64,000 nt of DNA from Bacteroidales bacterium. GTDB lineage: Bacteria > Bacteroidota > Bacteroidia > Bacteroidales > JAIPAP01. Location: the NCBI GenBank assembly GCA_021740045.1, contig JAIPAP010000002.1:13391-77390 (forward strand), in the 5' to 3' direction. Positions 1 through 17,539 of the stretch are shown piece after piece. Made by a program: the position numbers and the translations under genes. Numbering within the stretch: position 1 is the first letter of the stretch; every line of letters starts with the position of its first letter. Under the pieces are notes generated by a model. That model searched no databases and was not told where the DNA came from. It saw only the letters and a list, made by a program, of their open reading frames with translations.

Positions 1-1448
1 CATTCATGCTGAAAAGATAACCTTCCACCGTTTCCCAGTCACCTATGTTATTAATCCACATGGGGCCTATCTTCCGGAGCTCACTAGCATTGCTGTTTCT
101 GACAAAATTCAGGCGATCATCCAGGATTTCTTCCAGTACCACCAGCATATCCGGGTTTTCGGGAATAATGCGTGTAGATACAAACTGAAAACCTGAAATC
201 AAGCTAATACTCTGAGTGGTATTTATAACATAGCCGTCATTAAGCATGACAGGCAAGGTTTCCAGATCGGTATTCTGAATAATGGTTCCGGGCTCGAAAG
301 CAACATCGGCCTGACCGGTGGTATAATCGAAAATGAGGGTTACAAGTTCACCATCTTCAATGGTTAAACCTTCATTATCGGTTTTTACCAGGTAAACACT
401 TCCCTGTCCGGTATTAACCGACCATCCGCTAAACTGATCAGCATTAAAACCTGCATAACTCAACTTTTCAGTATCGAATGCAATGTTCAGGTTGATGCTT
501 GCCACATCATCATCTGCCAGGTTTGCAGCTATGATGGGTACATTAACGGTAGTACTGTCCATGGAACTAACCTGATCGATGGTCAACTCACGGTTCCCCC
601 CGGGTGTTTCCAGATCGATACTGCCATCGATAAATTCGGTGGCTAAAACCTCGGTTTGGTTGCTCACCAGGCTTCCGGCTTGAAATTCAAGTGGAGCCAG
701 TCCGCCTCCGTTGTATACAAAATCGAGGTTAAGCAAGGTTACCGCTGAAGTGAAATCCTCCGGGCCACCGGTCCATTCCATTTCAATTAAACCATTACCA
801 CCATTTGCAACAAAACCATAGGTATTTTCCGAAATGCCCTGGAAGGTCAATTTATCGGTATCATACGCTATTTTTAAGGAAATTGCACTAACCTCATCAA
901 AGTCCGGGCCCTCGATATCCACCGGCACACTGACTTCACTGCCAACCGGGGCAACTTCGGTGTTAATGCTAACCATTCCGGCAGTGCCGGTTAAGTTGGG
1001 TTCAACCATACCATTTGTATAAGTGGCATCGATGTTAACAAACTCAATAGTGGTTATTTCACACTCCTCGGTCACAAACTCCAGTTCGGCAGGAAAACCC
1101 CCGGCATATTCAAAGTCCAGGGTTGCGAGTAATCCATCGATGTTAACGCCATTCATATTGGTGGCCACAATTATCAACTGATCATTATAGAAATTTGCCG
1201 TAATGGGGGCAAAATCAGGATTCTCAAAACTTAAACCCTGGAATGACAACAGATCGGTTGGGTATTCCACCGTATATGTGATCGCGCCAACATCACCATT
1301 GGCTCCTGTGAAGCCAAGCATATTCAGATCAATTTCTACTCCTCCCGGATCAGCCTCGGTAACAGAGCCTAGCTGAACCTCCTGCCCTTTCATAACAGGT
1401 ATGAAGAGAAGAAACATGATCAACAGTTGTGATATTTTTCTAATCATA
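1..1448 (-). CDS. secreted protein with three tandem cohesin-like modules (partial; 3-prime end lies outside the window)
   Basis: Absent from the ORF track because no stop codon falls in the window. Manual translation from the ATG at 1448-1446 gives a signal peptide MIRKISQLLIMFLLFIPVMKG, and the frame stays open to position 1. It contains three ~125-aa repeats with the cohesin-like pattern (V.VPV...V.A..L.I.YD...L.F.G). The last ~70 aa in the window match the C-terminal repeats of the 38206-40746 protein. Confidence 0.7.
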
Positions 1449-1504
1449 GTATTCATTCTTTATTAGTTATCGATTCGATTGACCATTTATCAAACAGTAT
1501 TGTT

Positions 1505-2554
1505 TCATTCAATTATTAAAGTTTCTGTTGCTTTGATTTGCTTACCGGCAAATAGCTGCAAAATGTAAATGCCCGGTTCCAGCGAATGGACCTCAAGCTG
1601 CTGGGGCTTCTTGGTGATCAAGCAATCCATATTAGCTAACAGCCTTGTTCTGCCCATAGCATCACATATCTGAATTGTTGCATCATTTATCTGATCATTA
1701 AAGGCTATCCAAATCTTTTGTTCAGCAGGATTGGGATACACGCTTATAACATTATTCTTACTACCGGCAGTTGATTCCTGCAATCCGGCAGGATCAACAA
1801 GCAAGGAAGCTTCAGCGGTAATTCCCGAACATGATGCACTGGACAATTTGCAGCGATACTTCGCCTCATTCACCTCCAATATGGAAGTATGGACGGACAG
1901 TTGATGCGTATTGGCCCCATCATATGCGGGATCATCCTGTATGTTTACCCAATTATCCGCCATGAGCATTTGCCACTGAAATGTAGCATTTGCAAAATCA
2001 AAGACTTCAAAATAAGCCACTTCTTCTTCCGGAACTTCCAGGTGATTTGGCTGAGGAATAACCACCGCAGGCACAGTAATACTGCCACCGGTAAAAACCG
2101 CATCATCAACCACACTTAGATCAGCATTTACAATCTCACAATTGCTGCCCATATCCAATACCCCCGTTGTATCTTTCAGCATGAAATGAATGTTGAATAA
2201 TTTTTCATCATTCAAATCCACGGATGAATTCCCCACCCAGTTAATATTCAATGCCGGAGGGTTTTCATAACTGAAATTGCTTACAAGGTTCCCCGATGCC
2301 AGGGATTCATTCACATGATCAAGGCCGGTGTAAGCCAGGTTAGAGGTATCAACCTCGATAAAAAGGGTAAAGGACATGATGTCGTCAAAGTGATGAACCT
2401 TTACAGCTACAGCCACTTCATTGCCCACACATCCGATATGATGATCGATCATCACTTCGGGTTCATTTCCGGCCCGCAGGGAGAATCCCGTTAAAAGCGC
2501 ACCCAGGAGGATGAACAAACTGTATAAAGTGTTATGTGTGGTTTTTGCTGTCAT
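1505..2554 (-). CDS. T9SS cargo protein: cohesin-like module, Ig-like module and C-terminal sorting domain
   Basis: N-terminal signal peptide. Cohesin-like segment (VAVAVKVHHFDDIMSFTLFIEVDTSNLAYTG). Ig-like segment (FQWQ...YRCKL). C-terminus VYPNPAEQKIWIAF...GIYILQL...LIIE is typical of a type A T9SS CTD. Confidence 0.75.
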   Translation of the reverse strand: MTAKTTHNTLYSLFILLGALLTGFSLRAGNEPEVMIDHHIGCVGNEVAVAVKVHHFDDIMSFTLFIEVDTSNLAYTGLDHVNESLASGNLVSNFSYENPPALNINWVGNSSVDLNDEKLFNIHFMLKDTTGVLDMGSNCEIVNADLSVVDDAVFTGGSITVPAVVIPQPNHLEVPEEEVAYFEVFDFANATFQWQMLMADNWVNIQDDPAYDGANTHQLSVHTSILEVNEAKYRCKLSSASCSGITAEASLLVDPAGLQESTAGSKNNVISVYPNPAEQKIWIAFNDQINDATIQICDAMGRTRLLANMDCLITKKPQQLEVHSLEPGIYILQLFAGKQIKATETLIIE

Positions 2555-2604
2555 TTCTATTCAATCAAAATATGAACTGAAAAACGAAATCTGTTTGATT
2601 TTTG

Positions 2605-2640
2605 AAAACTGTTTGGAGCTTTCAAGCTCCAAACAGTTTT
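2605..2640 (-). terminator. hairpin directly after the stop of the 1176-aa gene
   Basis: Near-perfect inverted repeat aaaactgtttggagc / gctccaaacagtttt, 7 nt beyond the stop codon at 2647. Confidence 0.5.
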
Positions 2641-2646
2641 ATGGTC

Positions 2647-5600
2647 TTATTTACTGATTACCATTCGTTTGGTAACAGAATAGTTGGTGTTAGCACCTTC
2701 AAGGATTAATCGATAGTGGTATACACCGGGCTTCATGTTCTCATTGGTCATTTCAAACTCGTGCAAGCCGGAGTTTTGCGTTTCATTCAATAACGTAGTT
2801 ACCTTCTTACCTACCATGTTATAAACCTCGATAAGTACTTTACCGTTTTCAGGAAGGTTATAACTAATGGTAGTTTGATGGGTAAACGGATTGGGGTAGT
2901 TATCAGCTGATAATTCAGCGCCAATCTCGTTATTCAGACCGATGGTCTTGTACTGAACGTTATCGAGTACTTCAGCAGTAGTATTGGCCAGTTCGGCACC
3001 GGCGAGGCTGATGATCTCGGTATTGTTCTTTACGTTGCCAAGAACGCGAGCTTTAAGCACAACAACAGGTTCACCGGCATTGATATAAGCGCCGCGGGTA
3101 TCGAACCAATCGATGTTCACCTTACCATTTTCCTGATCGATGCGGGCAAAGTCATCACCGTAGTTTACTTCGATAACTTCAATCAGTTCATTGTTATATT
3201 CGATGTCCATTGAAATGGCACCAAGCTGTGCAGCCTGACCAAGGGTTACAGGAATTTCAATAACTTCACCTGCATTTACACCTTTATAGCTGTCAACATC
3301 AAGCTGAATGTCCGATTCGGACTTGAATCCGCCGTATTCGGGATCATAGGAAGCATTGATGTCACCTACAGCGCTGTAGTAAATATTCAGATACTGATTA
3401 CCAATCGCTTCGAAGTTGGTCAGATCGGAATAATAGTTATGCTCAAGTGCATTGGTAGTATAAAGGTAGCTACCGTTACGCTTGTCAAATTCGATATCGG
3501 TCAATTCAACGCCAAATACTGAAGCAGCGTTAAAGTCGGTTTCGGCAACCATTATACCGGCTACTTCAAAGTTCGGCTTGTTATTGAAGAAGGTAGCCAT
3601 GTTTCCAACAGCGCGCTGGCTGGTCATTAATGCATCAAGACCTGTTAAGGAAGAGCTGGCATTAACATCACCAAGACCATTGGCAAAGAAACCATATGGA
3701 GGAGTCATACCGGGATCGCCAATCCAGGTCATGTTATAAGGCGGAGCTGAAATATCAATGTTGGCTGCCATAAATTGAATGGCAAGTGCGTCGGTAGCAT
3801 TCACGCCACCCCAGCTATTCCAGTTCCAGGTATAACCCAGCAGCGGATCGATATTGGACTCTTCAAGGAATCCACCGTCCCATACAACAACGCGATACTG
3901 CTCCGAAGGATTCAGGTTATGGCTAAATTCAAAGTATGATTTGTATTCGGTCATTTCCTCATCCCAGTAAATCTCAACCTTATCAGTTTCGATCACGTCG
4001 GCATCGGTATAAGGATTGTCATTAGCCACATCAAAGTTACTGTTCACCAGCGACACCCAGAAATAGTCGGGTACAGTGTTACCGCTAACGTTAGCCGGGT
4101 ATGGTGAAGGAACCGGGCTTTCGGTATCGTTATAATACTTTAACTGACCGTGCAGCAGGTTGGGCATGAGCAGCACATCCTGATCAAAGTCCTTGGTATC
4201 ACAAGTATTTGATACGGTTACCTCAACGGTTCCGGCAGGACCGGCACCCCAGTCAACCACAACTTCTTCCTGGTTGTTCGCGCCGTCGATAGTACCACCG
4301 GTAACGGTCCATAAATAGCTATAGCCGGCAGTTACGGGATCAACTGAATAAACATGTCCGGTTGAATAAGCATTTGCTGTATCGTTTCCGGTAACAGTTG
4401 TTGAAGGGTCGACCATTGGGAACAGGTCAAAGTTGAAATCGGTATCGGTTGAGCAGGTTCCGTTATCTTCGTTCACCGAAAGAGTTCCGGTCATGATTTC
4501 GTAATTAACCATATCGATATCCCATTCAATTTCCACTACGGCAGTTCCTTGTCCGCTAATGATGGCTCCGTTATCAACAGTCCATAAAACTGAATTACCA
4601 CCAATTGGATTAGCCAATTCATAGGTTACTGTTGAACCCTGGCATGCTTCCACCGGATTACCAACCAGTGATTGTGGTGCCGGAGTTTCCTTAAATTGAA
4701 TTTCAACATCATCGGAAACAGGAGGGCAGTTACCGTTTGGTACGGTATACGTAAAAGTATAAACACCATAGGTATCAACTGTTACTTCTGCATTCGGGTC
4801 AAATTGATCGGGGCTCCAGTTGGTTACTGAACCGGGGCCTGTGTAGCTCCATTCACCAGTGCTTGAAGCAGTGGCATCCAGGGTATACACAAAACCACAA
4901 ACATCAGCATCATTTCCTGCATCAACAGTTTCATCTGGAACCACGGTAATGGTAACTTCATCGGAGTTTGTACATCCGTAAGTATCGGTTACTGTTAAGG
5001 TGTAGGTATATTCACCAACACCGGCAGCGCCTGCATCGAATGTCGGCTGGGCCAGGTTGGGATCATTCAGGTAGGTGGCCGGTGACCAGCTATAATCGAT
5101 ACCTGTTCCGGTTCCACCACCGTTGATTTGCGGGGTTTCGCACAAGCCGGCTTCAAAATCGACACCAGCATTAGCTGTGGGCGCCTCGTCAACTTCAATG
5201 GTAATAACATTGGAATAAACGTCGGCACATGTGTTGCTTGCCATTCTTCTGAATTCATGAACACCGGTAGGAAGTGTTGAACCGGAAGCATCATAGCCTA
5301 ACGAAGTAGCTCCGGCAATATCATTCCAACCGCCACCATCAAACTGGGTTTGCCACTGGTAAGTAAAACCTGTTCCGTCGCCACCCGAAGGTGTAACTGT
5401 ATTGGTAATAACCGGACCATTCTCACAAACACCTATGGTTGATGGTGAGTTAGTTGTAACGGTACCGCCGTCAACCTGTTCAAATTTATGAACGGTAACA
5501 ACACCTTCCATTTGTTCGGAACAGCTGTTCTCATTTACTGCAATCACATAGTAAGCTGTTGCAGAAGCTTGCGAATTGTTGTGATTTTCAACGGTAACAC

Positions 5601-6177
5601 CGGTAAACATAAGACTGCTGCCGGTTCCGGCTTCGGTATCCACAACAACATCGTCGGCCAGGCGGCGTAATTCATAATCGGTATTAACCTGTGAATTCGA
5701 CATCGAAATATCAACGCCGGCAGATTCATGGCAATAATAAGCGTTTTCGGCATCATCACCGGGGAAGTTAAAGTTAGTGTACTCAAAAACAAATATACCA
5801 GGTACCTCTTCAACTTCAACAAAGTATTTATCACCAATGGTTGTACCGTAATCATTTGTTGCAGTAGCACGAACCCAACCTTGGGAGCCTTGCGCGAGGG
5901 TATGCCAATTAATAGAAGCATAAGCGTTACCGTCGCCATCGTAACCACTGTTTAGAATAGTTCCTTTGTTGCTCACCTGCCAGGTGTAGTTTGCACCGCT
6001 TTCGGTATTGGTAACCGTATAGGTGGAAACGTCATTTAAACATACTTCCTGTGAACCGCTATAAATAGGCGCGGGCGGAGGATTTTGTGCATTCACTGTA
6101 CTGGCTGACAGAAAAAATAATACCACCAATATTATTGGCGCCATCAGCCCTTTGTTAGTTCTGTAATGTTTGTCCAT
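2647..6177 (-). CDS. large T9SS cargo protein: PKD-like/Ig-like repeats, dockerin-like repeats, cohesin-like module and CTD
   Basis: Signal peptide. Several PKD-like repeats (G..VC.....Y.V.....Y.W.V..G). Dockerin-like segments GGVNATDALAIQ and GDVNASSSLTGLDALMTSQRAVG. Cohesin-like GEVIEIPVTLGQAAQLGAISMDIEYNNELIEV. C-terminal YPNPFTHQTTISYNL...GVYHYRL...MVISK. Confidence 0.85.
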   Translation of the reverse strand: MDKHYRTNKGLMAPIILVVLFFLSASTVNAQNPPPAPIYSGSQEVCLNDVSTYTVTNTESGANYTWQVSNKGTILNSGYDGDGNAYASINWHTLAQGSQGWVRATATNDYGTTIGDKYFVEVEEVPGIFVFEYTNFNFPGDDAENAYYCHESAGVDISMSNSQVNTDYELRRLADDVVVDTEAGTGSSLMFTGVTVENHNNSQASATAYYVIAVNENSCSEQMEGVVTVHKFEQVDGGTVTTNSPSTIGVCENGPVITNTVTPSGGDGTGFTYQWQTQFDGGGWNDIAGATSLGYDASGSTLPTGVHEFRRMASNTCADVYSNVITIEVDEAPTANAGVDFEAGLCETPQINGGGTGTGIDYSWSPATYLNDPNLAQPTFDAGAAGVGEYTYTLTVTDTYGCTNSDEVTITVVPDETVDAGNDADVCGFVYTLDATASSTGEWSYTGPGSVTNWSPDQFDPNAEVTVDTYGVYTFTYTVPNGNCPPVSDDVEIQFKETPAPQSLVGNPVEACQGSTVTYELANPIGGNSVLWTVDNGAIISGQGTAVVEIEWDIDMVNYEIMTGTLSVNEDNGTCSTDTDFNFDLFPMVDPSTTVTGNDTANAYSTGHVYSVDPVTAGYSYLWTVTGGTIDGANNQEEVVVDWGAGPAGTVEVTVSNTCDTKDFDQDVLLMPNLLHGQLKYYNDTESPVPSPYPANVSGNTVPDYFWVSLVNSNFDVANDNPYTDADVIETDKVEIYWDEEMTEYKSYFEFSHNLNPSEQYRVVVWDGGFLEESNIDPLLGYTWNWNSWGGVNATDALAIQFMAANIDISAPPYNMTWIGDPGMTPPYGFFANGLGDVNASSSLTGLDALMTSQRAVGNMATFFNNKPNFEVAGIMVAETDFNAASVFGVELTDIEFDKRNGSYLYTTNALEHNYYSDLTNFEAIGNQYLNIYYSAVGDINASYDPEYGGFKSESDIQLDVDSYKGVNAGEVIEIPVTLGQAAQLGAISMDIEYNNELIEVIEVNYGDDFARIDQENGKVNIDWFDTRGAYINAGEPVVVLKARVLGNVKNNTEIISLAGAELANTTAEVLDNVQYKTIGLNNEIGAELSADNYPNPFTHQTTISYNLPENGKVLIEVYNMVGKKVTTLLNETQNSGLHEFEMTNENMKPGVYHYRLILEGANTNYSVTKRMVISK

Positions 6178-6445
6178 AATGTAAAGATTTAAGTTTTAAT
6201 AATTATTAATTTTCAAGATTTATCCCAATGCTACTTGATTGATTTACTACTTTAGTTGCAGCAGGGGGAGGTTTTCGAAATTTTTTAATCGAGAAAATTC
6301 TACCGGGTAAGCTCTTTGCTAAATATAAGGCATAGCAATGGCTCAAGAATGGAAAGCACTCGGTAAAGAAAGAAATTTAATTAAGAAAAAATGTTAGGAC
6401 AAACATGAATAATGTAACCGGCAAGAAAACAGGTTTCCCACTCTC

Positions 6446-7126
6446 CTACTGCTCTTCTTCCATGTTAATCAAATTGTGGTTCATGGCGTATTTCATCAAC
6501 CCCACAATAGAGCGGGTGCTGGTTTTGGTGAAGATATTTTTGCGATGGGTTTCCACCGTACGCTCACTTATAAAGAGCATATCGGCAATTTGCTCATTGG
6601 TATATTCGCGGGCTATCAGGTTAAGAATTTCGGTTTCACGGGGTGTTAGTTTTACCACATTGGGTTCAATGGTGGTAATGGCATCCTGACTGTTATATAT
6701 ATTACCCATGATAATGGTTTGCACATCACGGCTGAGGTATTTTTCCTTGCGGGCTACTGCACTTATGGCGTCAACTAGTTCATTCATATTGGTGCTTTTG
6801 AGCACATATCCCGAGGCACCGGCTTCGATCATCTTCGATATCAGGGTACTGTCATCATGCATGGTGAGCGCCAATACATATATGTTTGGATAGGCATTCC
6901 TTATTTGATAAGTTAATTCTATGCCCGACATTTTTGGCATGTTGATGTCGGCCAGTACCACATCCACTGCATGTTCGGTTAAAAACTTCAAAGCCTCATT
7001 GCCCGAGGTAACTCCCCCAACAATTTCCACGCGTTCATCCTCGGCAAATAAGGATCGTAAACCATCAATGATCAGTTGGTGATCATCAACGATAAGAAGA
7101 TTTATCGGTAAATTGTGTTCACTCAT
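6446..7126 (-). CDS. NarL/LuxR-family response regulator
   Basis: Receiver domain (LIVDDHQLIIDGL, ADINMPKMSG) plus a LuxR-type HTH (LTPRETEILNLIAREYTNEQIADMLFISERTVETHRKNI). Confidence 0.9.
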   Translation of the reverse strand: MSEHNLPINLLIVDDHQLIIDGLRSLFAEDERVEIVGGVTSGNEALKFLTEHAVDVVLADINMPKMSGIELTYQIRNAYPNIYVLALTMHDDSTLISKMIEAGASGYVLKSTNMNELVDAISAVARKEKYLSRDVQTIIMGNIYNSQDAITTIEPNVVKLTPRETEILNLIAREYTNEQIADMLFISERTVETHRKNIFTKTSTRSIVGLMKYAMNHNLINMEEEQ

Positions 7127-7135
7127 AATCCAATA

Positions 7136-9148
7136 TTAAATAGGCACATTAACAGTTATAATCGTTCCCCGGTTCTCGGCCGAGTCAATATGTACATTTC
7201 CATTTAAATTTTCAACCCTCGAAAAAGTGTTTTGCAACCCCATGCCATCGGTTTCTTTAATATGACGGGTATTAAACCCTTTTCCATTATCCTCGACTAA
7301 AATAGTAATTTCTTTTTCGTTTTTAAACATCTGCAAGCTTATTTCGGTAGCTTCGGCATGGCTGATAATATTATTAAAAATCTCCTGAATAACCCGGTAA
7401 AGCGTGTTCTCAACATATCCCTCCAGCCGTCCGTTAAAGCCGATAGCCTCAAAATGGATCTTGAATTGATTGGATTGTTTAATTCGATCGACCAAATCGC
7501 TTACTGCAGCCACCAATCCCTTGTTTTGCAACATAATGGGGGCCATATTATGGGAGATGCTTCTCAATTCATTAAAGGCATTATCCACCAGGTTGATCAA
7601 ACTGCCCACCCGGTTGCGCTCACGATCATCATTGGGTTCAATTTTCTCATAAAAGCTGCTCATATTCAGCTTTATTAATGAGAGCATTTGTCCCATTCCA
7701 TCATGCAACTCCTCTCCTATTCGTTTGCGTTCATTAATTTCGGCCTCCATCACAGCGCGGGCCCTTTTTTCCTTTTGGTTGATAAGGGCAGCATCCAGCT
7801 TGATCTTTTGCCGGTGCCTGTACTTAAAATACCATAAATACAAGCTAAGCAATCCCAGGGTGAAAATGGCGATAATGGCTATGATCTGTGTCTTACGATT
7901 TTCAAGCTGGATATTCTGTTTATCGATTCGCAGCTGCTGGATTTCGCGCTGCCGGGTTAGCTGGGTAATTTCCTTGGCTTTCTTTTCCGTTTCATAGGCC
8001 AGTTCCAGCTCATAGATCTGGTTAATGCGCTTATCGTTGATCACACTGTCTTTCACGGAAATATAGCGTTTATAAAAATCCAGTGCCTTCTTGTAATTAC
8101 CCTTACGTTCCCAAATCTTCGAGAAATTTTGATAGGCATAATATAAGGTAGGCTTACTGTTGATCCGCTCAGCCATATCTTTTGCCAGGCGATTGTAATA
8201 AAGGGCTTTCCGCAGGTTTCCTTCATCAAGGTACTTTCCTACCTTTATCAAATATGCCGAGGTAACTTCCCTGTTATTGTCAATAATGGTATTAAGGTTA
8301 ATGGTTTTGTTGATATACTCAAGCCCTTTTTCAGTTTCCCCTTTTTCAAGGTAAAGTACACCCATTTCATTATAAGAAATACCAAGCCCATAATAATCCT
8401 TAACCTGTTCCTTAATGCGAATTGACTGTTCAATATATTCAAAAGCTTTATCATTTTCTTCCATTTTATGATAAACCGAGCCGAGGTTTGTTAGGAGGGC
8501 GCCCATTCGCAATGTATCTCCAAATCGCTTATAACTTTTATAGGCCTTTTTAAAATAGTTAACGGCTTTAGGAAAATTCTTCAGCGAAGCATAAAACATC
8601 CCAATGTTATTCTGGGCACTGGTGATTCCTGTTGAATCGCGTGTATATTGAAAAAACTCCAAAGCCGAGAAGCTATAATCGAGGGCCTCCTTGTAGTTTC
8701 CTGTGCGCGAATGGGTCAGGCCAATATTATTTAATATACGGGCCATTAATAAGGTATCGCTCACCCTCCGGCACATTCTTATGGCTTTATGGTAATGGTA
8801 CAACGCACTATCATATCTGCTGTTAACATCATAAACAATTCCCGTGCGATTATGCCCATCTACCAAGCCTTTAATATAATTAAGGTGTTCCGCCAATTTA
8901 ATGGCTTTCTTGCCATATTGTAATGCAGTATCGGATTGGCTATAGGTATAATGCCAGCAAAGTTCATTTAAAACATCAACCAATGCTGTATCTTCGGCCA
9001 CTTGCAAAGCCCTGTGCAAACTATCGGGTTCCTGCCTGGAGAAAGCACTGTTATTGGTTAAAAACACAAAGCATATAATAATAACATTAAGTTTCATAAA
9101 CATCAATGGATAATACCAGATTTTGCGGTGTAAAAGTATAGATTTCAT
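7136..9148 (-). CDS. TPR-repeat sensor histidine kinase (HisKA_3 type)
   Basis: The N-terminal half has TPR-like repeats. One TM helix (IIAIIAIFTLGLLSLYLWYF), then a coiled coil. H-box EELHDGMGQMLS and an ATPase region with VEDNGKGF and GMGLQN. The gene lies 9 nt upstream of the response regulator. The true start may be the internal Met near 9103. Confidence 0.85.
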   Translation of the reverse strand: MKSILLHRKIWYYPLMFMKLNVIIICFVFLTNNSAFSRQEPDSLHRALQVAEDTALVDVLNELCWHYTYSQSDTALQYGKKAIKLAEHLNYIKGLVDGHNRTGIVYDVNSRYDSALYHYHKAIRMCRRVSDTLLMARILNNIGLTHSRTGNYKEALDYSFSALEFFQYTRDSTGITSAQNNIGMFYASLKNFPKAVNYFKKAYKSYKRFGDTLRMGALLTNLGSVYHKMEENDKAFEYIEQSIRIKEQVKDYYGLGISYNEMGVLYLEKGETEKGLEYINKTINLNTIIDNNREVTSAYLIKVGKYLDEGNLRKALYYNRLAKDMAERINSKPTLYYAYQNFSKIWERKGNYKKALDFYKRYISVKDSVINDKRINQIYELELAYETEKKAKEITQLTRQREIQQLRIDKQNIQLENRKTQIIAIIAIFTLGLLSLYLWYFKYRHRQKIKLDAALINQKEKRARAVMEAEINERKRIGEELHDGMGQMLSLIKLNMSSFYEKIEPNDDRERNRVGSLINLVDNAFNELRSISHNMAPIMLQNKGLVAAVSDLVDRIKQSNQFKIHFEAIGFNGRLEGYVENTLYRVIQEIFNNIISHAEATEISLQMFKNEKEITILVEDNGKGFNTRHIKETDGMGLQNTFSRVENLNGNVHIDSAENRGTIITVNVPI

Positions 9149-9329
9149 ATAGCTTGCAGCAAGCTGGAAGGCAGGATTTTAATAAAAATACGTGTTGGCA
9201 CGGAGGAAGTCCCGGGAAAAATACCAGAAATCCCCTATTGCTTCATAATCAATCTGTAACATATTTTTGTCGCTGCACTTTTCCGGATGATCCGGAGGTA
9301 AAAATATCATTAACCAAATCATTAAAATT

Positions 9330-10802
9330 ATGAAGACAAACATTACGAGACTCACAACTTTCATTTTAGGTATTCTGTTTATAGGAATTGCATCAAATAC
9401 CCTGGCGCAGAAGGATTGGCATTTCGAACAAGTAACCGATGATAACATCAGGGATAAGGTATCGGGGCAGGCTTTTAAAGTAGACGCCGATAACAATCTT
9501 CACTTGGTTTTCGAAAAGTTCGGCGAATCATCACACGATATCTATTACACAAAAAGGCCTTGTGGCGAATACTGGACACAGCCCGTTAAAGTTAATGAAG
9601 AAAACACCAATGCATTTAAGCCGGCGCTGGCAGTAGACAGCCAGAACGTACCCTACGTATTTTATGAAATTGAACATCCTGACAGTATCGACCTTCATCT
9701 GGCTCATATGGAAGATAACAATTGGAATTATGAAGTAATAGTGGATCAACCTAAGTTTAATTTAATGCCCTCGATCGACATTGACGATCAGGGTAAAATC
9801 CACCTGGCCTGGATCGGCCCCGATTCTAAAGACTCCATGCGGGTTTGGTACGCCCATAATGATATGGGAATATGGATGATTCAGAAGCTTGGATTTACTA
9901 TCCCCAACAAGATTGGTGATCCGAAAAGCGGCCCCGAATGTAATGGCGCTAACCCCTGCATTCGCGCTAACAGCGAACAAATTGCCCATATTGTATATCG
10001 CGGTGGCGCCCCTGGATTTATGTACATCCATCACGCCTATAATACCATGCCTTTTGGTATGATGTGGGAAGAAGAGATCGTGGAAACCGAAAATCTTAAT
10101 GATTTTTATGGCATGATCGAGATCGATGATGAGGATAACATCCACTTCGCTGCCAGTGGCAACGACGGTGATGGATTCCCTGATTGGGTTTATTATCGCC
10201 AATTCAGCGATGGTAACTGGAGTGAACCCGAGAAGGTAAATAATATTGTGAACGGCCCGCTCACCTCCATGACCCTCGACAAAGAAGGAAATGCACATAT
10301 TACTTATGATGAGCTCGGTGGCTATATACTCATGGGCAATATCGGTTATGCCAACAATATAGGCGGTACATTCTCCGACACCCTTCTGCTGATCGATAGT
10401 CTCTCAATGAGTGGTGTGGTCCAGGTTGATGGTAATATGAATGTTCATGTTGCGCATCATTGGGGAGAAACCAATGATGAAAACGAAATCAGAGTAATAT
10501 CGGATGGCTACTGTGGTGGAACCACCGGCATTGAAGAGCAGGCTATTAAAGAGCAAGGTTTTGCCATTTATCCCAACCCTGCCGATGAATTTGCTACCCT
10601 GCGCTTTAACAGCGAAGCCAGTAATAAAATTGCCGTGCGGGTTTATAACCTTACCGGAAAGCTTGTAAAAGAGCTCAGCTCACAAAAACTGATGCAAAAA
10701 AATACGGTTACCATAGATATAAGCTCATTAACCAAGGGCATTTATATGGTGCAGTTGACTAATGGTGATCAGTCATACACAAATAAGTTATTGGTTAAGT
10801 AG
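9330..10802 (+). CDS. T9SS cargo protein with a beta-propeller-like sevenfold repeat
   Basis: Signal peptide. A short strand motif recurs about seven times (HLVFE, YVFYE, IHLAWIG, AHIVYRG, IHFAASG, AHITYDE, VHVAHHW). C-terminus is IYPNPADEFATLRF...GIYMVQL...LLVK. Confidence 0.8.
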   Translation: MKTNITRLTTFILGILFIGIASNTLAQKDWHFEQVTDDNIRDKVSGQAFKVDADNNLHLVFEKFGESSHDIYYTKRPCGEYWTQPVKVNEENTNAFKPALAVDSQNVPYVFYEIEHPDSIDLHLAHMEDNNWNYEVIVDQPKFNLMPSIDIDDQGKIHLAWIGPDSKDSMRVWYAHNDMGIWMIQKLGFTIPNKIGDPKSGPECNGANPCIRANSEQIAHIVYRGGAPGFMYIHHAYNTMPFGMMWEEEIVETENLNDFYGMIEIDDEDNIHFAASGNDGDGFPDWVYYRQFSDGNWSEPEKVNNIVNGPLTSMTLDKEGNAHITYDELGGYILMGNIGYANNIGGTFSDTLLLIDSLSMSGVVQVDGNMNVHVAHHWGETNDENEIRVISDGYCGGTTGIEEQAIKEQGFAIYPNPADEFATLRFNSEASNKIAVRVYNLTGKLVKELSSQKLMQKNTVTIDISSLTKGIYMVQLTNGDQSYTNKLLVK

Positions 10803-10832
10803 TAATTGGAGTTTACCTTTTTTAAGCAGAAC

Positions 10833-10864
10833 GACCGGGGGTTTTGGAACTCCCGGTCTTTTTT
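10833..10864 (+). terminator. rho-independent terminator
   Basis: Stem gaccggg / cccggtc followed by a T6 run, 30 nt after the stop at 10802. Confidence 0.6.
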
Positions 10865-10877
10865 AAAAGCAAAATCT

Positions 10878-12548
10878 ATGAAAAAGATCAGTCTTTTATT
10901 CATAATTTTTATTTCGGGACTTTTATCACTAGGCCAATCCCAACGTATGGTGATACTCGAGCATTTTACCGGAGCTTCCTGCACATTTTGCGCTGTTTAC
11001 AATCCCATGGTAGAAGAACTGCTCAATAATCACCCCGACAAAATCACTTCTATTAAATACCAGTTCTTTCTCCCCGACCCCATGTATCATCACTGTAATG
11101 AAGATATTGATGCCAGGTTGGAATACTATAATAATCAGGCTGTCCCGCACAGTATATTGGATGGTAACTTTTTCGACGATCATCCGGCCAACCTTTCCGG
11201 TGAGATTATCCTGGAGCGCTACAATGAGCCTTCGCCTTTTAACATACAGCCTCATCATGAATTATCACCCGATAATGATTCGGTTTATATCGATATGCTA
11301 ATTGAGGCCACAGCCCCCGTTAATGGTAATTTATCGGCATATATTGCCGTTGTGGAAGAGCATATCCATTTTGAAGAGCCGCCCGGACAAAACGGTGAAA
11401 CGGATTTTTATAATGTATTGAAGAAGATGTTACCGACCTCCCAGGGCAAGACGCTGCAGCAAGATTTCCAGGAAGGAGACTATGTGCTATTACAAACCCA
11501 ATGGAAAACCGAGAACTTTTATAATATCGAAAAATTGGAGGTTATTGGTTTTGTGCAGGATATGGGAACCCGGGAAATCCATCAAACGGTTGTTAGCAGC
11601 GATCAGCCCATTACACCCCTTTTTAAAAACGACGTGGAATTGATACAAACTGACCATGTTCCGGCGATCTATTGTGATCATTTGCAACCCCGGATTGTTA
11701 TCAGGAACAATGGCTCACAAACATTGAATAAGCTACAAATCAGTGCATCGATCAACAGGGAAGAGGTGTTTTCAAAAAACTGGACCGGAAATCTCAAATC
11801 ATTAGAAACAACAAGCATTCAACTCGATCCCCTGGAATTTATCCCACAGGAGCAAAACGAACTGTTAATCAGCCTCGCATCTCCTAATAATAGTAACGAT
11901 GGGTATTCAGCCAACAATGAACAGCTATTCGCCATAAAGAACGCTCCCAGGGCTTCTCAATCCATCGTACTCATGATCAAAACCGATAACAATCCCGGCG
12001 AAACTTCATGGAAGCTTATCAACAGCATGGAAGAAATCATTGAGTCCGGGGGGCCATATGATCAAGCAGGCACTTTATACTCACATAGATTAAGTTTTAA
12101 TGATGAGGGTTGTTATACCATTGTCATCTCCGATTCGGCCGGCAACGGATTTAACAGCGAAAACGGCAACGGATTTTTTCTTATCGTAGACGATTCAGGT
12201 AATCCCATGCATGAAGGAACTTTTATCAGCAACTCCATAGGTTTGCCCGTACACATGACCAGTGCCGCTACCATTAAGGAGTCGCAATCAAACACCTTAG
12301 TGCAGGTGTATCCGAATCCCGTAAGAGAGAATGTAACACTGAACATAAATGGTAACATGACCGGCCCGGTTATGATTACCTTATATAATATGTATGGAAA
12401 AAAAGTTCGACAATATGAAAAGAAAAACCTCTATAATGGGATGATAAACCTTAAACTGGACCACTTACAAGCCGGTTATTATATCCTTCAAATTACTGAT
12501 GAAAAAGGGAACACCTATACCACCGAAATGATCAAAGCAAAACCCTGA
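10878..12548 (+). CDS. T9SS cargo protein with an Omp28-related/thioredoxin-fold N-terminal region
   Basis: The track ORF begins at 10806, but that start overlaps the upstream terminator. MKKISLLFIIFISGLLSLGQ at 10878 is a proper signal peptide. The segment MVILEHFTGASCTFCAVYNP resembles the Omp28-related family. C-terminus is VYPNPVRENVTLNI...GYYILQI. Confidence 0.7.
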   Translation: MKKISLLFIIFISGLLSLGQSQRMVILEHFTGASCTFCAVYNPMVEELLNNHPDKITSIKYQFFLPDPMYHHCNEDIDARLEYYNNQAVPHSILDGNFFDDHPANLSGEIILERYNEPSPFNIQPHHELSPDNDSVYIDMLIEATAPVNGNLSAYIAVVEEHIHFEEPPGQNGETDFYNVLKKMLPTSQGKTLQQDFQEGDYVLLQTQWKTENFYNIEKLEVIGFVQDMGTREIHQTVVSSDQPITPLFKNDVELIQTDHVPAIYCDHLQPRIVIRNNGSQTLNKLQISASINREEVFSKNWTGNLKSLETTSIQLDPLEFIPQEQNELLISLASPNNSNDGYSANNEQLFAIKNAPRASQSIVLMIKTDNNPGETSWKLINSMEEIIESGGPYDQAGTLYSHRLSFNDEGCYTIVISDSAGNGFNSENGNGFFLIVDDSGNPMHEGTFISNSIGLPVHMTSAATIKESQSNTLVQVYPNPVRENVTLNINGNMTGPVMITLYNMYGKKVRQYEKKNLYNGMINLKLDHLQAGYYILQITDEKGNTYTTEMIKAKP

Positions 12549-13265
12549 TCAGCCCTTATCGCTGATCTTGACCAGGGCTTCACGGTCATGAATGGTGAAA
12601 TGATTATTGGACAGTTCAATAATGCGGGCATCTTTAAATTCCTTTAGAATACGTATGGCGCTTTCCTTACTCATGGAAGTTAAATCAGCAATGTCTTGCC
12701 TGCTTAATGGTGTTTCAAAACTGGTAGCGTTATGAATTTCATCGGCAAGGTATAATAATGCATCGGCAATACGCCCCGACATGTGCTTTTGGGTAAGGTT
12801 GATGAATTTTTTAAAGTTTTGTATTCCCTGTATATTATTCTTTTTAAGGATGTTAAGGGCCAGGTTCTGGTTCATTTTCATGATCTTCTCCAGGGAATTC
12901 ACATCTATAAAGCACGTTTGCACATCAGTTAAGGCCGCTACTGAAAAATGATGAATAAAATCAACATACATTCCCGGCCCACCAATAATGGCGTTTTCCC
13001 TGGCCACTTTAATAAGAAGGTTTTTTTTGTTAAGCCCCTCGATATATATTTTTACCATACCCTGCAGAATGCAGGCAATGTGGGTAAGCGCTGTACCTTG
13101 CTTAAACATAATTTCACCGGCGTTAAATTCAACTTCATGCCGGTTCTCATTCAGTATTTCAAGTTGTTCGGGTGATAATCCCCTAAAGATACTTTGAGTT
13201 AAACAGCATGTAGTACATGCCATCTTTCTTGAATATTTCGCCATTGAATCTCTCTTTTCCGCCAC
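12549..13265 (-). CDS. Crp/Fnr-family transcriptional regulator with an N-terminal Cys cluster
   Basis: cNMP-binding-like beta-roll and a C-terminal HTH (RQDIADLTSMSKESAIRILKEF). Cysteines sit at C17, C20, C21 and C118 (numbered from the track start), reminiscent of FNR iron-sulfur ligands. Confidence 0.85.
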   Translation of the reverse strand: MAEKRDSMAKYSRKMACTTCCLTQSIFRGLSPEQLEILNENRHEVEFNAGEIMFKQGTALTHIACILQGMVKIYIEGLNKKNLLIKVARENAIIGGPGMYVDFIHHFSVAALTDVQTCFIDVNSLEKIMKMNQNLALNILKKNNIQGIQNFKKFINLTQKHMSGRIADALLYLADEIHNATSFETPLSRQDIADLTSMSKESAIRILKEFKDARIIELSNNHFTIHDREALVKISDKG

Positions 13266-13334
13266 AAATATAGTAAATTAAATATGTTGATAAATAATTT
13301 TATACCTAAATGCACCCTAAAGGTAAATAAAATA

Positions 13335-13348
13335 TTGATATTAATCAA
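13335..13348. promoter_or_regulatory. perfect FNR/CRP-type box TTGAT-N4-ATCAA
   Basis: The sequence ttgatattaatcaa lies in the 216-bp divergent intergenic region between the Crp/Fnr gene and the first cytochrome gene. A second palindrome, ttgat-N7-atcaa, is at 13356-13372. Confidence 0.55.
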
Positions 13349-13481
13349 CATATACTTGATGCCGGTCATCAAAAAATTGGGTTTACTTCTTTTTAAGCAA
13401 AGAGGTATATCAGGCTTAAAAACATTCATCGATTTATATTAATATGTAATATTGTGAATGATTTCACGAAGAAATTTATGA

Positions 13482-14543: not shown

Positions 14544-14563
14544 TAATGAATGGAATCAAAGTG

Positions 14564-14595
14564 CGAAAAAAGGTTTCTGTAGAGGCCTTTTTTCG
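14564..14595 (+). terminator. hairpin terminator after the hexahaem gene
   Basis: 10-bp stem cgaaaaaagg / ccttttttcg with the T-run embedded in the 3-prime arm, 21 nt after the stop. Confidence 0.5.
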
Positions 14596-14697
14596 TGCTT
14601 CATGTACTAAGTCAATATATGATGAAACAATTTGTATGTAATTATCCTTTATATTAATGTACAATGTTTCTTCACTTAATTAAAAAACGACGAGCGA

Positions 14698-15090
14698 ATG
14701 AAAGGTTGGAAAATATTCAGAATAGGAATCATATTCATGATAGTGGCAGCTTTTACATCATGCGAATATGAATTTATCGAGCCGCCTCAACCCGATTTTA
14801 ACGGCGAGGATAGTGTTTTAAGCTTTTCCGATAAAATTCTCCCCATTTTTACGGATGGTGATAACTGTACATCATGCCACAACAGCGGCGGGACCCCACC
14901 CGATCTTACAGCGGGCAATGCCTATAACAGCATTATGAATAATAATCTGGTTGACACGGCTGCACCCGAGCAAAGTGTACTTTATGATTATGTAAGACCG
15001 GATACCGATAGCCACGACTGGAAAGCGTATACCTCAACCGAAGCTCAGCTGGTTCTTGAATGGATCAAACAAGGAGCTAAGAATAATTAA
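14698..15090 (+). CDS. small monohaem c-type cytochrome lipoprotein
   Basis: Signal peptide ending in the lipobox AFTSC, followed by an acidic stretch EYEFIEPPQPDFNGED. There is a single CTSCH motif. Confidence 0.7.
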   Translation: MKGWKIFRIGIIFMIVAAFTSCEYEFIEPPQPDFNGEDSVLSFSDKILPIFTDGDNCTSCHNSGGTPPDLTAGNAYNSIMNNNLVDTAAPEQSVLYDYVRPDTDSHDWKAYTSTEAQLVLEWIKQGAKNN

Positions 15091-15986: not shown

Positions 15987-16023
15987 CAAATAATTTTGTT
16001 AAAAATATAAAAGAGGAGAGATT

Positions 16024-16440: not shown

Positions 16441-16458
16441 ACCTATAATGAATGTTAA

Positions 16459-16524
16459 AACCCTGTTCGCACCCGGTTTGGAGTAAGTGATTATTCCTCT
16501 GTAAGGCATGGTGCGCACAGGGTT
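16459..16524 (+). terminator. long-loop hairpin downstream of the cytochrome c gene
   Basis: 15-bp arms aaccctgttcgcacc / ggtgcgcacagggtt (1 mismatch) with a ~36-nt loop, followed by gtttatt. Confidence 0.35.
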
Positions 16525-16557
16525 GTTTATTAAGATGATAACTTTAAATTAACTACC

Positions 16558-17520: not shown

Positions 17521-17539
17521 ACTGAAGATAAAAGAAGAA

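What the first reader, a model, noticed from the sequence alone, without database searches (positions are those of the whole stretch)
1..6177. Cohesin-like and dockerin-like modules on T9SS cargo proteins, next to a dedicated two-component system
Three consecutive secreted proteins carry cohesin-like modules: three in the partial ORF, one in the 349-aa protein and one in the 1176-aa protein. The 1176-aa protein also has two dockerin-like Ca-loop segments (GGVNATDALAIQ and GDVNASSSLTGLDALMTSQRAVG) just upstream of its own cohesin-like module. Two of the three end in T9SS sorting domains. The set could assemble into a cell-surface scaffold through cohesin-dockerin-type contacts. It lies directly downstream of, and co-oriented with, a TPR sensor kinase and a LuxR-type regulator.
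Basis: partly seen in the sequence, partly recalled or inferred. Interest (0 to 1): 0.6.

Follow-up and report, generated by a model that had tools for sequence, protein, structure and literature searches.

The report
Cohesin-dockerin surface proteins in a Bacteroidota
Three neighbouring secreted surface proteins of an uncultured Bacteroidota bacterium carry the plug-and-socket modules (dockerin and cohesin) known from clostridial cellulosomes, in a gene cluster conserved across related bacteria, but with no enzymes attached and with a regulator pair next door that is probably there by coincidence.

Summary
On the minus strand lie a TPR histidine kinase, a NarL/LuxR regulator, then three T9SS cargo genes: C (1176 aa), B (349 aa) and A (789 aa, cut by the window edge and completed from a public contig).

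A has three cohesin modules; B and C have one each. Three of the five pass Pfam's cohesin threshold. The other two are linked to them by profile-profile comparison at 97-99% probability. The model of C's cohesin matches only cohesins in the PDB.

C's two "Ca-loop" segments are a diverged type I dockerin:
- This protein scores below the Pfam threshold (17 vs 22.9 bits), but an orthologue at 47% identity passes.
- A family profile hits solved dockerins at E 4e-8 to 1e-5.
- A confident model (pLDDT 83) shows two helices inserted into a prealbumin-like beta-sandwich.
- Only the second calcium loop is intact.

The cassette sandwich+dockerin, cohesin, T9SS tail recurs in 75 of 127 homologues. The gene order C-(B)-A recurs in 10 of the 16 related loci fetched.

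None of those loci has the two-component system, so "dedicated" is not supported. No enzyme is present, so this is not a cellulosome. Binding between the modules is untested.

I rate it a new variant of a known kind, of moderate interest.

The parts
7136..9148 (-). Sensor histidine kinase, 670 aa: N-terminal TPR array, one transmembrane segment, HisKA_3 and HATPase_c. It is adjacent to the cluster, but this adjacency is not conserved elsewhere.
   Evidence: Pfam TPR_12 1.1e-32, HisKA_3 1.6e-11, HATPase_c 1.1e-11. No counterpart next to the cluster in 16 related loci.
6446..7126 (-). NarL/LuxR-type response regulator, 226 aa (receiver domain plus GerE helix-turn-helix).
   Evidence: Pfam Response_reg 1e-29, GerE 3e-17.
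6178..6445 (-). 268-bp intergenic gap between the regulator and gene C. It presumably holds C's own promoter.
   Evidence: Sequence read. The sigma-70 and terminator scan gave counts at chance level.
4165..6177 (-). Protein C, aa 1-671: signal peptide, then an array of Ig-like and PKD-like domains (the passenger part). No catalytic domain.
   Evidence: Pfam PKD_6 2.1e-16 (3 stretches); K319L-like_PKD and Ig_7 below threshold. PDB sequence match to the KIAA0319L PKD domains, 1.9e-6.
3322..4164 (-). Protein C, aa 672-952: a prealbumin/CarboxypepD_reg-like beta-sandwich that carries the dockerin as an internal insertion and ends in the conserved GDINASYxP motif (aa 938-944).
   Evidence: AF2 model pLDDT 83, pTM 0.84: strands 4-96, helices 113-185, strands 199-265 of the 289-aa segment. 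The N-terminal part of the family profile hits NOMO2 and SdrD B-type sandwiches.
3595..3843 (-). Protein C, aa about 779-861: diverged type I dockerin.
- Repeat 1: NWNSWGGVNATDALAIQ. Its calcium loop is degenerate, with Trp at loop position 5.
- A linker about 34 aa long follows.
- Repeat 2: DVNASSSLTGLDALMTSQRAVG. Its 12-residue loop D-x-N-x-S-...-D is intact.
   Evidence: Pfam Dockerin_1 17 bits, below the cut-off. Orthologue P0003 scores 29.2 bits, above it. Profile A4 hits 4dh2_B at 3.9e-8, 1ohz_B at 9.4e-7, and also 4uyq_B, 2ccl_B, 4fl4_A and 1daq. Foldseek gives 4uyp_B probability 0.93, TM 0.57.
2923..3309 (-). Protein C, aa 957-1085: cohesin module (the 'cassette' cohesin, directly after the dockerin module).
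   Evidence: Pfam Cohesin 48.6 bits. The top 50 Foldseek PDB hits are all cohesins, probability 1.00, TM up to 0.65.
2647..2898 (-). Protein C, aa 1094-1176: T9SS type A C-terminal sorting domain (the range includes the stop codon).
   Evidence: Pfam Por_Secre_tail 8.6e-8. TIGR04183 5.6e-8.
2060..2473 (-). Protein B, aa 28-165: diverged cohesin module.
   Evidence: No direct Pfam hit. hhalign gives 97-99% to the other cohesins. 8 of 41 orthologues hit Pfam Cohesin. The family profile aligns over the full length of cohesins 1g1k, 2vn5 and 4uyp at E 0.05-0.2.
1769..2059 (-). Protein B, aa 166-262: Ig-like domain of a type repeated up to 29 times in giant surface proteins.
   Evidence: The family profile hits Ig-like domains of PDB entries 9ncf_S (5.5e-13, 'Immunoglobulin-like domain protein') and 9c2d_S (1.1e-8, 'tail protein'). 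Many multi-copy hits.
1508..1741 (-). Protein B, aa 272-348: T9SS type A sorting domain.
   Evidence: Pfam Por_Secre_tail 1.8e-10.
998..1384 (-). Protein A, aa 22-150: cohesin module 1 (diverged). The signal peptide is encoded at 1447-1385.
   Evidence: No Pfam hit. hhalign gives 99.2% to B's cohesin and 97.6% to A module 2.
584..997 (-). Protein A, aa 151-288: cohesin module 2.
   Evidence: Pfam Cohesin 37.5 bits.
173..583 (-). Protein A, aa 289-425: cohesin module 3.
   Evidence: Pfam Cohesin 30.9 bits.
1..172 (-). Protein A, aa 426-482: start of the C-terminal half. That half has two repeats of about 70 aa, a domain of about 120 aa and the T9SS tail, and continues outside the window to aa 789.
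   Evidence: Full protein from L001:10132-12501. Por_Secre_tail 8.4e-13 on the part outside the window.

Best explanation
This is a Bacteroidota version of a non-cellulosomal cohesin-dockerin system.

Shown:
- Three co-oriented genes (C, B, A), probably one transcription unit, encode non-enzymatic modular proteins.
- Each has a Sec signal peptide (judged by eye) and a type A T9SS sorting domain.
- Together they carry five cohesin modules and one diverged type I dockerin.
- The dockerin is built into a prealbumin-like beta-sandwich and sits directly before C's own cohesin and T9SS tail.
- This cassette and the C-(B)-A gene order are conserved in related bacteria.

Inferred from established T9SS and cohesin-dockerin knowledge:
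- The proteins are exported by the T9SS and their tails are cleaved.
- The proteins are tethered to the outer membrane by their C-termini.
- C's dockerin then binds, in a calcium-dependent way through its one intact loop and its two helices, a cohesin of A or B, or the cassette cohesin of a neighbouring C molecule.
- This ties the Ig/PKD-bearing proteins into a surface assembly that serves adhesion or surface organisation, not polymer degradation.

The neighbouring TPR kinase and NarL regulator may control the genes in this genome, but they are not a conserved part of the system.
For: Module identity:
- Pfam cohesin scores above threshold for 3 of 5 modules.
- hhalign gives 97-99% for the other two.
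- C's cohesin has the cohesin fold.
- Dockerin homology rests on an orthologue that passes Pfam's cut-off, on 142 profile hits mostly annotated PF00404 with matching coordinates, on profile hits to solved, cohesin-bound dockerins at E 4e-8 to 1e-5, and on a Foldseek probability of 0.93.

Export signal: Por_Secre_tail/TIGR04183 is present on all three proteins.

Functional linkage:
- Among the 8 GTDB loci, an A-type three-cohesin gene follows the C-type gene in 5 of the 7 that have any sequence downstream of C.
- C-B-A or C-A order also occurs in metagenome loci L011, L014 and L015.
- Other loci add further cohesin genes, including a 2581-aa protein with six cohesins.
- 75 of 127 dockerin-module homologues have a cohesin immediately downstream, followed by about 80 aa of T9SS tail.

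The same dockerin module also ends some enzymes, as enzyme-borne dockerins do: GH18 chitinases P0249, P0253 and P0260, a beta-lactamase-fold protein P0243 and an esterase P0262.
Against: - No binding was tested.
- The first calcium loop is degenerate across the whole Bacteroidota subfamily, and the two repeats are split by a long linker in C's family.
- The dockerin is buried as an insertion in a sandwich, unlike free C-terminal dockerins.
- The 415-aa AF2 model that held both the dockerin and the cohesin gave pLDDT below 50 for the dockerin part, so no confident docking in cis was seen. Its alignment was shallow, with 12 sequences.
- The locus has five cohesins but one dockerin, and no other dockerin lies in the 64 kb.
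- All three proteins already have their own surface anchor, so tethering through a cohesin is not needed for surface display.
Confidence: 0.55

Rival explanations
1. Clasp or stalk in cis. The dockerin of C binds the cohesin that follows it in the same polypeptide. This forms a rigid sandwich-dockerin-cohesin pedestal just above the T9SS anchor. It is a generic stalk cassette for many different passengers, not an intermolecular connector. The cohesins of A and B then bind other partners or nothing.
For: - The order dockerin module, cohesin, CTD is fixed, with a constant 215-225 aa remaining after the dockerin module in 75 of 127 homologues that carry very different N-terminal passengers.
- C's cohesin is the most divergent of the five: hhalign gives 90-93% to A1 and A2 and only 17% to A3. 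This fits a separate, cassette-specific partner.
- An intramolecular clasp within a dockerin is known from R. flavefaciens ScaA (PMC3821032, title and abstract seen).
Against: - The AF2 model of the segment holding both modules did not give a confident dockerin, so no docking in cis was evident.
- The same dockerin module also occurs without a following cohesin, at the C-terminus of enzymes and of three-cohesin proteins in L003 and L012.
- The conserved synteny with multi-cohesin genes is not explained.
Confidence: 0.25
2. Enzyme-recruiting scaffold, a true cellulosome analogue. A and B are surface scaffoldins whose cohesins capture dockerin-tagged hydrolases encoded elsewhere in the genome. 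C is an adaptor.
For: - Dockerin modules of this same subfamily sit at the C-terminus of GH18 chitinases, an esterase and a beta-lactamase-fold protein in other Bacteroidota.
- Multi-cohesin T9SS proteins exist, with three cohesins here and six in L016.
- A comparable inference was published for Cloacimonadota (PMC8542988).
Against: - There is no catalytic domain and no CBM in this cluster or in any of the 16 related loci. Only Ig, PKD, fn3 and InlB-B-repeat modules were found.
- No second dockerin lies in the 64 kb.
- The rest of the genome is not available.
Confidence: 0.2
3. No cognate interaction. The cohesin modules are simply beta-sandwich spacers or ligand-binding modules of adhesins. 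The dockerin-like insertion is a calcium-binding element that stabilises the prealbumin-like sandwich. The gene cluster reflects duplication and shuffling of surface-protein genes.
For: - The first calcium loop is degenerate and the dockerin is embedded in a sandwich.
- Two of the five cohesins are too diverged for Pfam.
- The region is rich in unrelated T9SS cargo genes, with nine CTD-bearing ORFs in the window.
Against: - Residues of both dockerin helices are nearly invariant across distant homologues (W-G-G-V-N-A-T-D-A-L, and D-V-N...D-A-L...R).
- The dockerin module co-occurs tightly with cohesins, both within proteins and within loci.
- Every cohesin-dockerin pair tested so far, including the archaeal ones, binds, as summarised in PMC9012536.
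Confidence: 0.15
4. The adjacent TPR histidine kinase and NarL/LuxR regulator form a dedicated switch for the C-B-A genes.
For: The pair lies directly upstream, on the same strand, 268 bp from gene C.
Against: - The adjacency is absent from all 16 related loci where the C/A cluster is present.
- Two further T9SS cargo genes lie divergently on the other side of the kinase (9330-12548) and are equally plausible targets.
- No shared operator could be identified.
Confidence: 0.2

Closest known systems
Clostridial and ruminococcal cellulosomes (type I cohesin-dockerin, e.g. C. thermocellum CipA with the Xyn10B dockerin, PDB 1OHZ)
   Same: - The same two module families are present. C's cohesin model matches 1aoh, 1ohz_A and 3ul4_A, and the dockerin family profile matches 1ohz_B, 2ccl_B, 4dh2_B and 1daq.
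- There is a multi-cohesin protein (A).
- There is a protein with both a cohesin and a dockerin, like adaptor scaffoldins.
- The proteins are expected to be anchored at the cell surface.
   Different: - The host is Gram-negative, and anchoring is through the T9SS CTD rather than SLH domains or sortase.
- There are no enzymes and no CBM.
- The dockerin has only one intact calcium loop, and a long linker separates its repeats.
- The dockerin is inserted in a beta-sandwich rather than being a free terminal module.
Non-cellulosomal cohesin/dockerin modules (Peer et al. 2009 survey; Archaeoglobus fulgidus cohesin PDB 2XDH; C. perfringens GH84C/GH33 cohesin-like modules 2JH2, 2O4E, 2VO8)
   Same: - These are cohesin and dockerin modules in organisms that do not degrade cellulose, on proteins without cellulases.
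- These structures are among the top fold matches of C's cohesin.
- Archaeal pairs were shown to bind, as cited in PMC9012536.
   Different: - The link to the T9SS, the conserved multi-gene cluster and the sandwich-embedded dockerin are not part of those descriptions, as far as I could check.
- The Peer et al. paper itself could not be read.
Putative cellulosome-like complex of Ca. Stygibacter (Cloacimonadota), Williams et al. 2021, PMC8542988
   Same: [quoted passage not shown]
   Different: There the dockerins are on enzymes (GH18, GH57, peptidases) and the scaffoldin has CBMs. Here no enzymes or CBMs are in the cluster, and the phylum is Bacteroidota.
Type II X-module-dockerin dyads (e.g. 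A. cellulolyticus ScaA XDoc, PDB 4U3S/4WI0; C. thermocellum CipA XDoc)
   Same: An Ig-like beta-sandwich is packed intimately against a dockerin. The family profile aligns across both parts of 4u3s_B and 4wi0_B at E 0.007.
   Different: In X-Doc dyads the sandwich precedes the dockerin. Here the dockerin interrupts the sandwich, with strands before and after it. The sequence similarity is weak.

Membership tests
Cohesin (Pfam PF00963) | Score at or above the Pfam gathering cut-off (24.1 bits) | tested here: met
   Met for A module 2 (37.5 bits), A module 3 (30.9) and C (48.6). A module 1 and B's module get no direct hit, but they join the family by hhalign at 97-99% and through orthologues that do hit: 8 of 41 B orthologues, and the L003 B orthologue at 20.5 bits.
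Cohesin (Pfam PF00963) | Nine-stranded jelly-roll beta-sandwich fold of solved cohesins | tested here: met
   Tested for C's module only. Its AF2 region has pLDDT 75-88, and the top 50 Foldseek PDB hits are all cohesins with probability 1.00 and TM up to 0.65. Not modelled for A or B.
Cohesin (Pfam PF00963) | Binds a cognate dockerin | not testable with these tools
   This needs ITC, pull-down or a complex prediction.
Dockerin type I (Pfam PF00404) | Score at or above the Pfam gathering cut-off (22.9 bits) | tested here: not met
   C scores 11.4 bits on the 285-aa piece and 17.0 bits on the 83-aa piece, second repeat only. Orthologue P0003 (47% identity) scores 29.2 bits across both repeats, and nine remote homologues score 27.6-39.4 bits.
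Dockerin type I (Pfam PF00404) | Two tandem segments of about 22 residues, each a 12-residue EF-hand-like calcium loop (ligands at positions 1, 3, 5 and 12) followed by a helix | tested here: inconclusive
   Repeat 2 (D836-D847) has D1, N3, S5 and D12 plus a helix, so the feature is met there. Repeat 1 has N1, N3, W5 and D12, so the ligand at position 5 is lost. This holds across the whole Bacteroidota subfamily, whose consensus is xWGGVNATDAL. The two helices are predicted at segment positions 123-133 and 175-185. The linker between the repeats is about 34 aa longer than in compact homologues.
Dockerin type I (Pfam PF00404) | Homology and fold similarity to solved dockerins | tested here: met
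   Profile A4, with C as its first sequence, hits 4dh2_B at 3.9e-8, 1ohz_B at 9.4e-7, 4uyq_B at 1e-6, 2ccl_B, 4fl4_A and 1daq. Foldseek gives 4uyp_B and 4uyq_B probabilities of 0.93 and 0.87, TM 0.57, which is a moderate match.
Dockerin type I (Pfam PF00404) | Calcium-dependent binding to a cohesin | not testable with these tools
   Requires an experiment or multimer prediction.
T9SS type A cargo (TIGR04183 / PF18962) | C-terminal sorting domain above the curated cut-off, plus an N-terminal signal peptide | tested here: met
   C scores 32.8 bits, B 41.4 bits and A 48.9 bits, against a cut-off of 27. TIGR04183 also hits B and C. The signal peptides were judged by eye from the N-termini.
Cellulosome (multi-enzyme complex) | Dockerin-bearing catalytic subunits and a carbohydrate-binding module on the scaffoldin | tested here: not met
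   No catalytic domain and no CBM in A, B or C, or in the cluster genes of the 16 related loci. C is the only dockerin-bearing protein in the window.
NarL-family two-component system | HisKA_3 and HATPase_c kinase paired with a REC and GerE/LuxR regulator | tested here: met
   All four domains score above their cut-offs. The two genes are 9 bp apart.
Dedicated regulator of the cluster | Conserved adjacency to the regulated genes in related genomes | tested here: not met
   No RR or HK homologue next to the cluster in loci L002-L017. The blastp cut-offs were E<=1e-3 for L002-L009 and E<=1e-5 for L010-L017. The upstream neighbours were identified as LepA, a SprB-repeat protein and a beta-helix protein.

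The most novel reading that the evidence does not exclude
Bacteroidota may possess a widespread, previously undescribed T9SS-linked cohesin-dockerin surface-assembly system. Its core would be a self-complementary C-terminal cassette: a prealbumin-like sandwich with an embedded single-loop dockerin, then a cohesin, then the T9SS anchor. This cassette would let diverse cargo proteins dock head-to-tail onto each other, and onto dedicated multi-cohesin scaffold proteins encoded next door. The result would be a non-enzymatic protein lattice or fibril layer on the outer membrane, a Gram-negative counterpart of the cellulosome scaffold used for adhesion or surface organisation.
Probability: 0.2. Interest if true: 0.7.

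Novelty: new variant of a known kind. Interest (0 to 1): 0.5.

Why it matters
Cohesin-dockerin pairs are the classic high-affinity connectors of Gram-positive cellulosomes and are widely used in synthetic biology. Papers on Bacteroidetes usually state that the phylum lacks cellulosomal components (for example PMC5831590).

This locus and its relatives show that some anaerobic Bacteroidota carry a conserved cluster of T9SS-exported proteins built from these modules. The dockerin has an unusual architecture: it is embedded in a sandwich, has a single calcium loop and is fused directly to a cohesin and the T9SS anchor.

If the modules bind each other, this would:
- reveal a new way in which T9SS cargo is organised on the outer membrane;
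- add a new cohesin-dockerin specificity class for protein engineering;
- give a handle on the function of many 'dockerin type I domain-containing' hypothetical proteins in Bacteroidota MAGs.

If they do not bind, it would be a clear case of these modules being reused for structural roles.

Tried and rejected
- A direct Pfam scan of the whole 1176-aa protein gave no dockerin at E<=0.1. Only isolated sub-segments gave sub-threshold hits.
- NCBIfam has no cohesin or dockerin hit for any of the three proteins.
- phmmer of C against PDB sequences found only PKD domains and a marginal cohesin match.
- The close-family profile A3 against PDB found nothing. The broader profile A4 was needed.
- The first AF2 run, with 12 sequences, gave pLDDT below 50 across the dockerin region, so it says nothing about dockerin-cohesin contacts in cis.
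- Foldseek with the good model found no significant match for the whole sandwich-plus-dockerin unit (best E 0.19). Only the local dockerin match is meaningful.
- The sigma-70 promoter and terminator scan of 1-9600 gave counts at chance level and is not suited to Bacteroidota promoters.
- Peer et al. 2009 (PMC3035643) is not held and could not be read.
- I considered whether the nearby multihaem cytochrome genes tie the cohesin proteins to electron transfer, since cohesin and dockerin proteins have been discussed in the methane-oxidising ANME archaea (PMC9012536). No cytochrome in the window carries a dockerin, so I dropped this.
- The 490-aa and 580-aa T9SS proteins beside the kinase share only the sorting domain with the other cargo genes.


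Full report
**Layout**

All relevant genes lie on the minus strand:
- A TPR/HisKA_3/HATPase_c histidine kinase, 9148-7136.
- A receiver plus GerE (NarL/LuxR) regulator, 7126-6446, 9 bp after the kinase.
- A 268-bp gap.
- Protein C, 1176 aa, 6177-2647.
- Protein B, 349 aa, 2554-1505.
- Protein A, whose start codon is at 1447 and which runs off the window.

An exact-match look-up of B found the same DNA on Logan contig SRR12088347_3103 (locus L001). This completes A to 789 aa and shows that A also ends in a T9SS sorting domain. Beyond A lie an opposite-strand Exo_endo_phos gene and hydrogenase maturation (hyp) genes. In this genome the cluster is therefore exactly C-B-A.

**Cohesins**

- Scanned module by module, Pfam Cohesin scores above its 24.1-bit cut-off for A module 2 (37.5), A module 3 (30.9) and C aa 957-1065 (48.6). 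It finds nothing for A module 1 or for B's N-terminal module.
- I built small family alignments of each module from orthologues and compared them by profile-profile alignment. A1-B gives 99.2%, A1-A2 97.6%, A2-B 98.4%, A3-B 97.7% and B-C 97.2%. A control, B's Ig domain against C's cohesin, gives 0.1%.
- A full HMMER scan of 1.84 billion representatives with B returned dozens of orthologues of about 350 aa with the same architecture.
- 8 of 41 of these hit Pfam Cohesin, best E 1.6e-10.
- Their profile aligns end to end, weakly, with solved cohesins 1g1k, 2vn5 and 4uyp.
- The AF2 model of C's cohesin (pLDDT 75-88) returns only cohesins among its top 50 PDB matches. These include the non-cellulosomal cohesins of Archaeoglobus fulgidus and Clostridium perfringens.
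- The count of 3+1+1 cohesin modules is therefore correct.

**Dockerin**

The two quoted segments are at C aa 790-801 and 836-858. Pfam Dockerin_1 is below threshold on this protein: 17 bits against 22.9, second segment only. Four lines of evidence show that the region is nevertheless a diverged dockerin.

1. Orthologue P0003, at 47% identity, scores 29.2 bits across both segments.
2. A profile of the region (A3) retrieves 142 proteins. Most carry precomputed PF00404, and several are named 'dockerin type I domain-containing protein [Bacteroidota]'. The aligned stretches coincide with the Pfam dockerin coordinates.
3. A 53-sequence profile with C as first row (A4) hits solved, cohesin-bound dockerins: 4dh2_B at 3.9e-8, 1ohz_B at 9.4e-7, 4uyq_B, 2ccl_B, 4fl4_A and 1daq. 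Its N-terminal part hits CarboxypepD_reg/SdrD-B sandwiches.
4. With this deeper alignment AF2 gives a confident single-domain model (pLDDT 83, pTM 0.84). It has six strands, then helices that include the two dockerin helices, then four more strands. Its only high-probability PDB matches are the ScaB dockerin, at probability 0.93 and 0.87 and TM 0.57.

The sequence shows the following directly:
- The second 12-residue loop is intact: D-V-N-A-S-S-S-L-T-G-L-D.
- The first loop has Trp at ligand position 5, as in the whole Bacteroidota subfamily.
- C's family has an extra linker of about 34 residues between the repeats.
- A third invariant motif, GDINASYxP, closes the sandwich.

This module is the only one of its kind in the 64-kb window.

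**A conserved cassette and a conserved cluster**

- Of 127 homologues of the dockerin module, 75 have a cohesin immediately downstream, with a constant 215-225 residues to the C-terminus (cohesin plus T9SS tail). This holds behind very different N-terminal passengers.
- Others end with the module at the C-terminus of enzymes such as GH18 chitinases, an esterase and a beta-lactamase-fold protein.
- A scan of GTDB species genomes found eight loci in Bacteroidales, Lentimicrobiaceae and other Bacteroidota MAGs.
- In five of the seven GTDB loci with any sequence downstream of C, an A-type three-cohesin gene follows the C-type gene. A B-type gene sits between them in L003.
- A metagenome scan with the three-cohesin region found eight more loci. 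Their orders are C-B-A-D-E (L011), C-B-A (L015), C-A (L014), B-A-D-E (L012), and A-D-E and A-D (L013, L010). D and E are further cohesin-bearing T9SS proteins.
- Loci L016 and L017 have a cohesin-dockerin-cohesin-CTD protein next to a 2581-aa T9SS protein with six Pfam cohesins.
- In L003 and L012 the three-cohesin protein ends in a dockerin module instead of a T9SS tail.
- No catalytic domain or CBM appears in any cluster gene examined. Only Ig, PKD, fn3 and InlB-B-repeat modules were found.

**Two-component system**

The domain assignments are solid. However, none of the 16 related loci has a NarL-type regulator or a TPR kinase beside the cluster. The upstream neighbours identified are LepA, a SprB-repeat protein and a beta-helix protein. 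The kinase here also faces two other T9SS cargo genes on the opposite strand. The pairing may be real in this genome, but it is not a conserved, dedicated part of the system.

**Mechanism**

- Shown: module identities, T9SS tails, the cassette and the synteny.
- Inferred from established T9SS biology: type A CTD cargo is exported, the CTD is removed and the protein is attached at the cell surface.
- Inferred from established cohesin-dockerin biology: binding is calcium-dependent and uses the dockerin helices on one face of the cohesin.
- From these I infer that the proteins are displayed on the outer membrane and that C's dockerin engages a cohesin of A or B, or of a neighbouring C. This would link proteins with Ig/PKD arrays into a non-enzymatic surface assembly. 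I put this at about 0.55.
- The rivals are an in-cis clasp or stalk cassette (0.25), a scaffold that recruits dockerin-tagged enzymes encoded elsewhere (0.2), and purely structural modules that do not bind each other (0.15).
- The asymmetric dockerin, with one intact loop, argues against the dual binding mode typical of clostridial type I dockerins.

**Comparison and novelty**

- Non-cellulosomal cohesin and dockerin modules are known (Peer et al. 2009, cited but not readable).
- Archaeal pairs were shown to bind, as summarised in PMC9012536.
- A CTD-anchored multi-cohesin scaffoldin was inferred for Cloacimonadota (PMC8542988).
- Dockerin HMM hits in Bacteroidales have been listed in passing (PMC10266427).
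- Bacteroidetes papers typically state that cohesins and dockerins are absent from the phylum (PMC5831590).
- Four full-text searches found no description of the sandwich-embedded dockerin, the dockerin-cohesin-CTD cassette or the conserved C-(B)-A cluster.
- I therefore rate it a new variant of a known kind. It is not a cellulosome, because that membership test fails on enzymes and CBMs.
- Interest is 0.5. The finding is a real and fairly surprising feature for the phylum, with clear experiments available, but the function remains inferred.

Noticed in passing
window 12549-19779: A Crp/FNR-type regulator (12549-13265, minus strand) is followed on the plus strand by three multihaem c-type cytochromes with 6-7 CXXCH motifs each (MtrC/MtrF-like, c7/c3-like and NapC/NirT-like), a DUF5777 membrane beta-barrel (15090-15986) and a cytochrome b561 (17540-18175). 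This looks like a periplasmic-to-outer-membrane electron-transfer module in an anaerobic Bacteroidota.
   Followed up: partly
window 21308-28672: Five tandem paralogous genes of about 480 aa (28-56% pairwise identity). Each ends in a T9SS sorting domain, and the N-terminal 400 aa or so have no Pfam match. In all, nine ORFs in the window carry a T9SS tail.
   Followed up: partly
L001:12566-19882 (just beyond window position 1): Directly downstream of protein A lie an Exo_endo_phos gene and a hypA/B/C/D/E/F hydrogenase maturation cluster. Together with the cytochromes this points to an anaerobic host that uses hydrogen.
   Followed up: no
L016:8204-20375 and L017:2-11279: These two metagenome contigs carry a cohesin-dockerin-cohesin-CTD protein (Dockerin_1 at 28.4 bits), a small cohesin-CTD protein, and a 2581-aa T9SS protein with six Pfam cohesins (144 bits in total). 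The last is a true scaffoldin-like protein in Bacteroidota-type context.
   Followed up: partly
L003:12712-14490 and L012:1296-3017: In these relatives the three-cohesin (A-type) protein ends in a CarboxypepD_reg/dockerin module instead of a T9SS sorting domain. Cohesins and the dockerin are thus combined differently in different lineages.
   Followed up: partly
window 1769-2059 (protein B aa 166-262): This Ig-like domain, with a conserved YQWQ...W...YRC...C pattern, occurs in up to 29 copies in giant proteins of up to 5695 aa. It resembles Ig-like domains of PDB entries 9ncf ('Immunoglobulin-like domain protein') and 9c2d ('tail protein'). The unit of cohesin plus this Ig domain is itself repeated inside some giant proteins.
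   Followed up: no
L001:11406-12200 (protein A aa 426-700, mostly outside the window): Two repeats of about 70 residues (consensus ...LDFVRNS...LRKIG..WINNIGD...GEGYL...) and a domain of about 120 residues have no Pfam match. Their function is unknown.
   Followed up: no
L003:8111-11563 and L009:9361-14413: The C-type gene is split into two ORFs in L003. In L009, a long-read MAG, the C-type and A-type genes are broken into several ORFs. These could be frameshift errors or pseudogenes; I did not resolve which.
   Followed up: no
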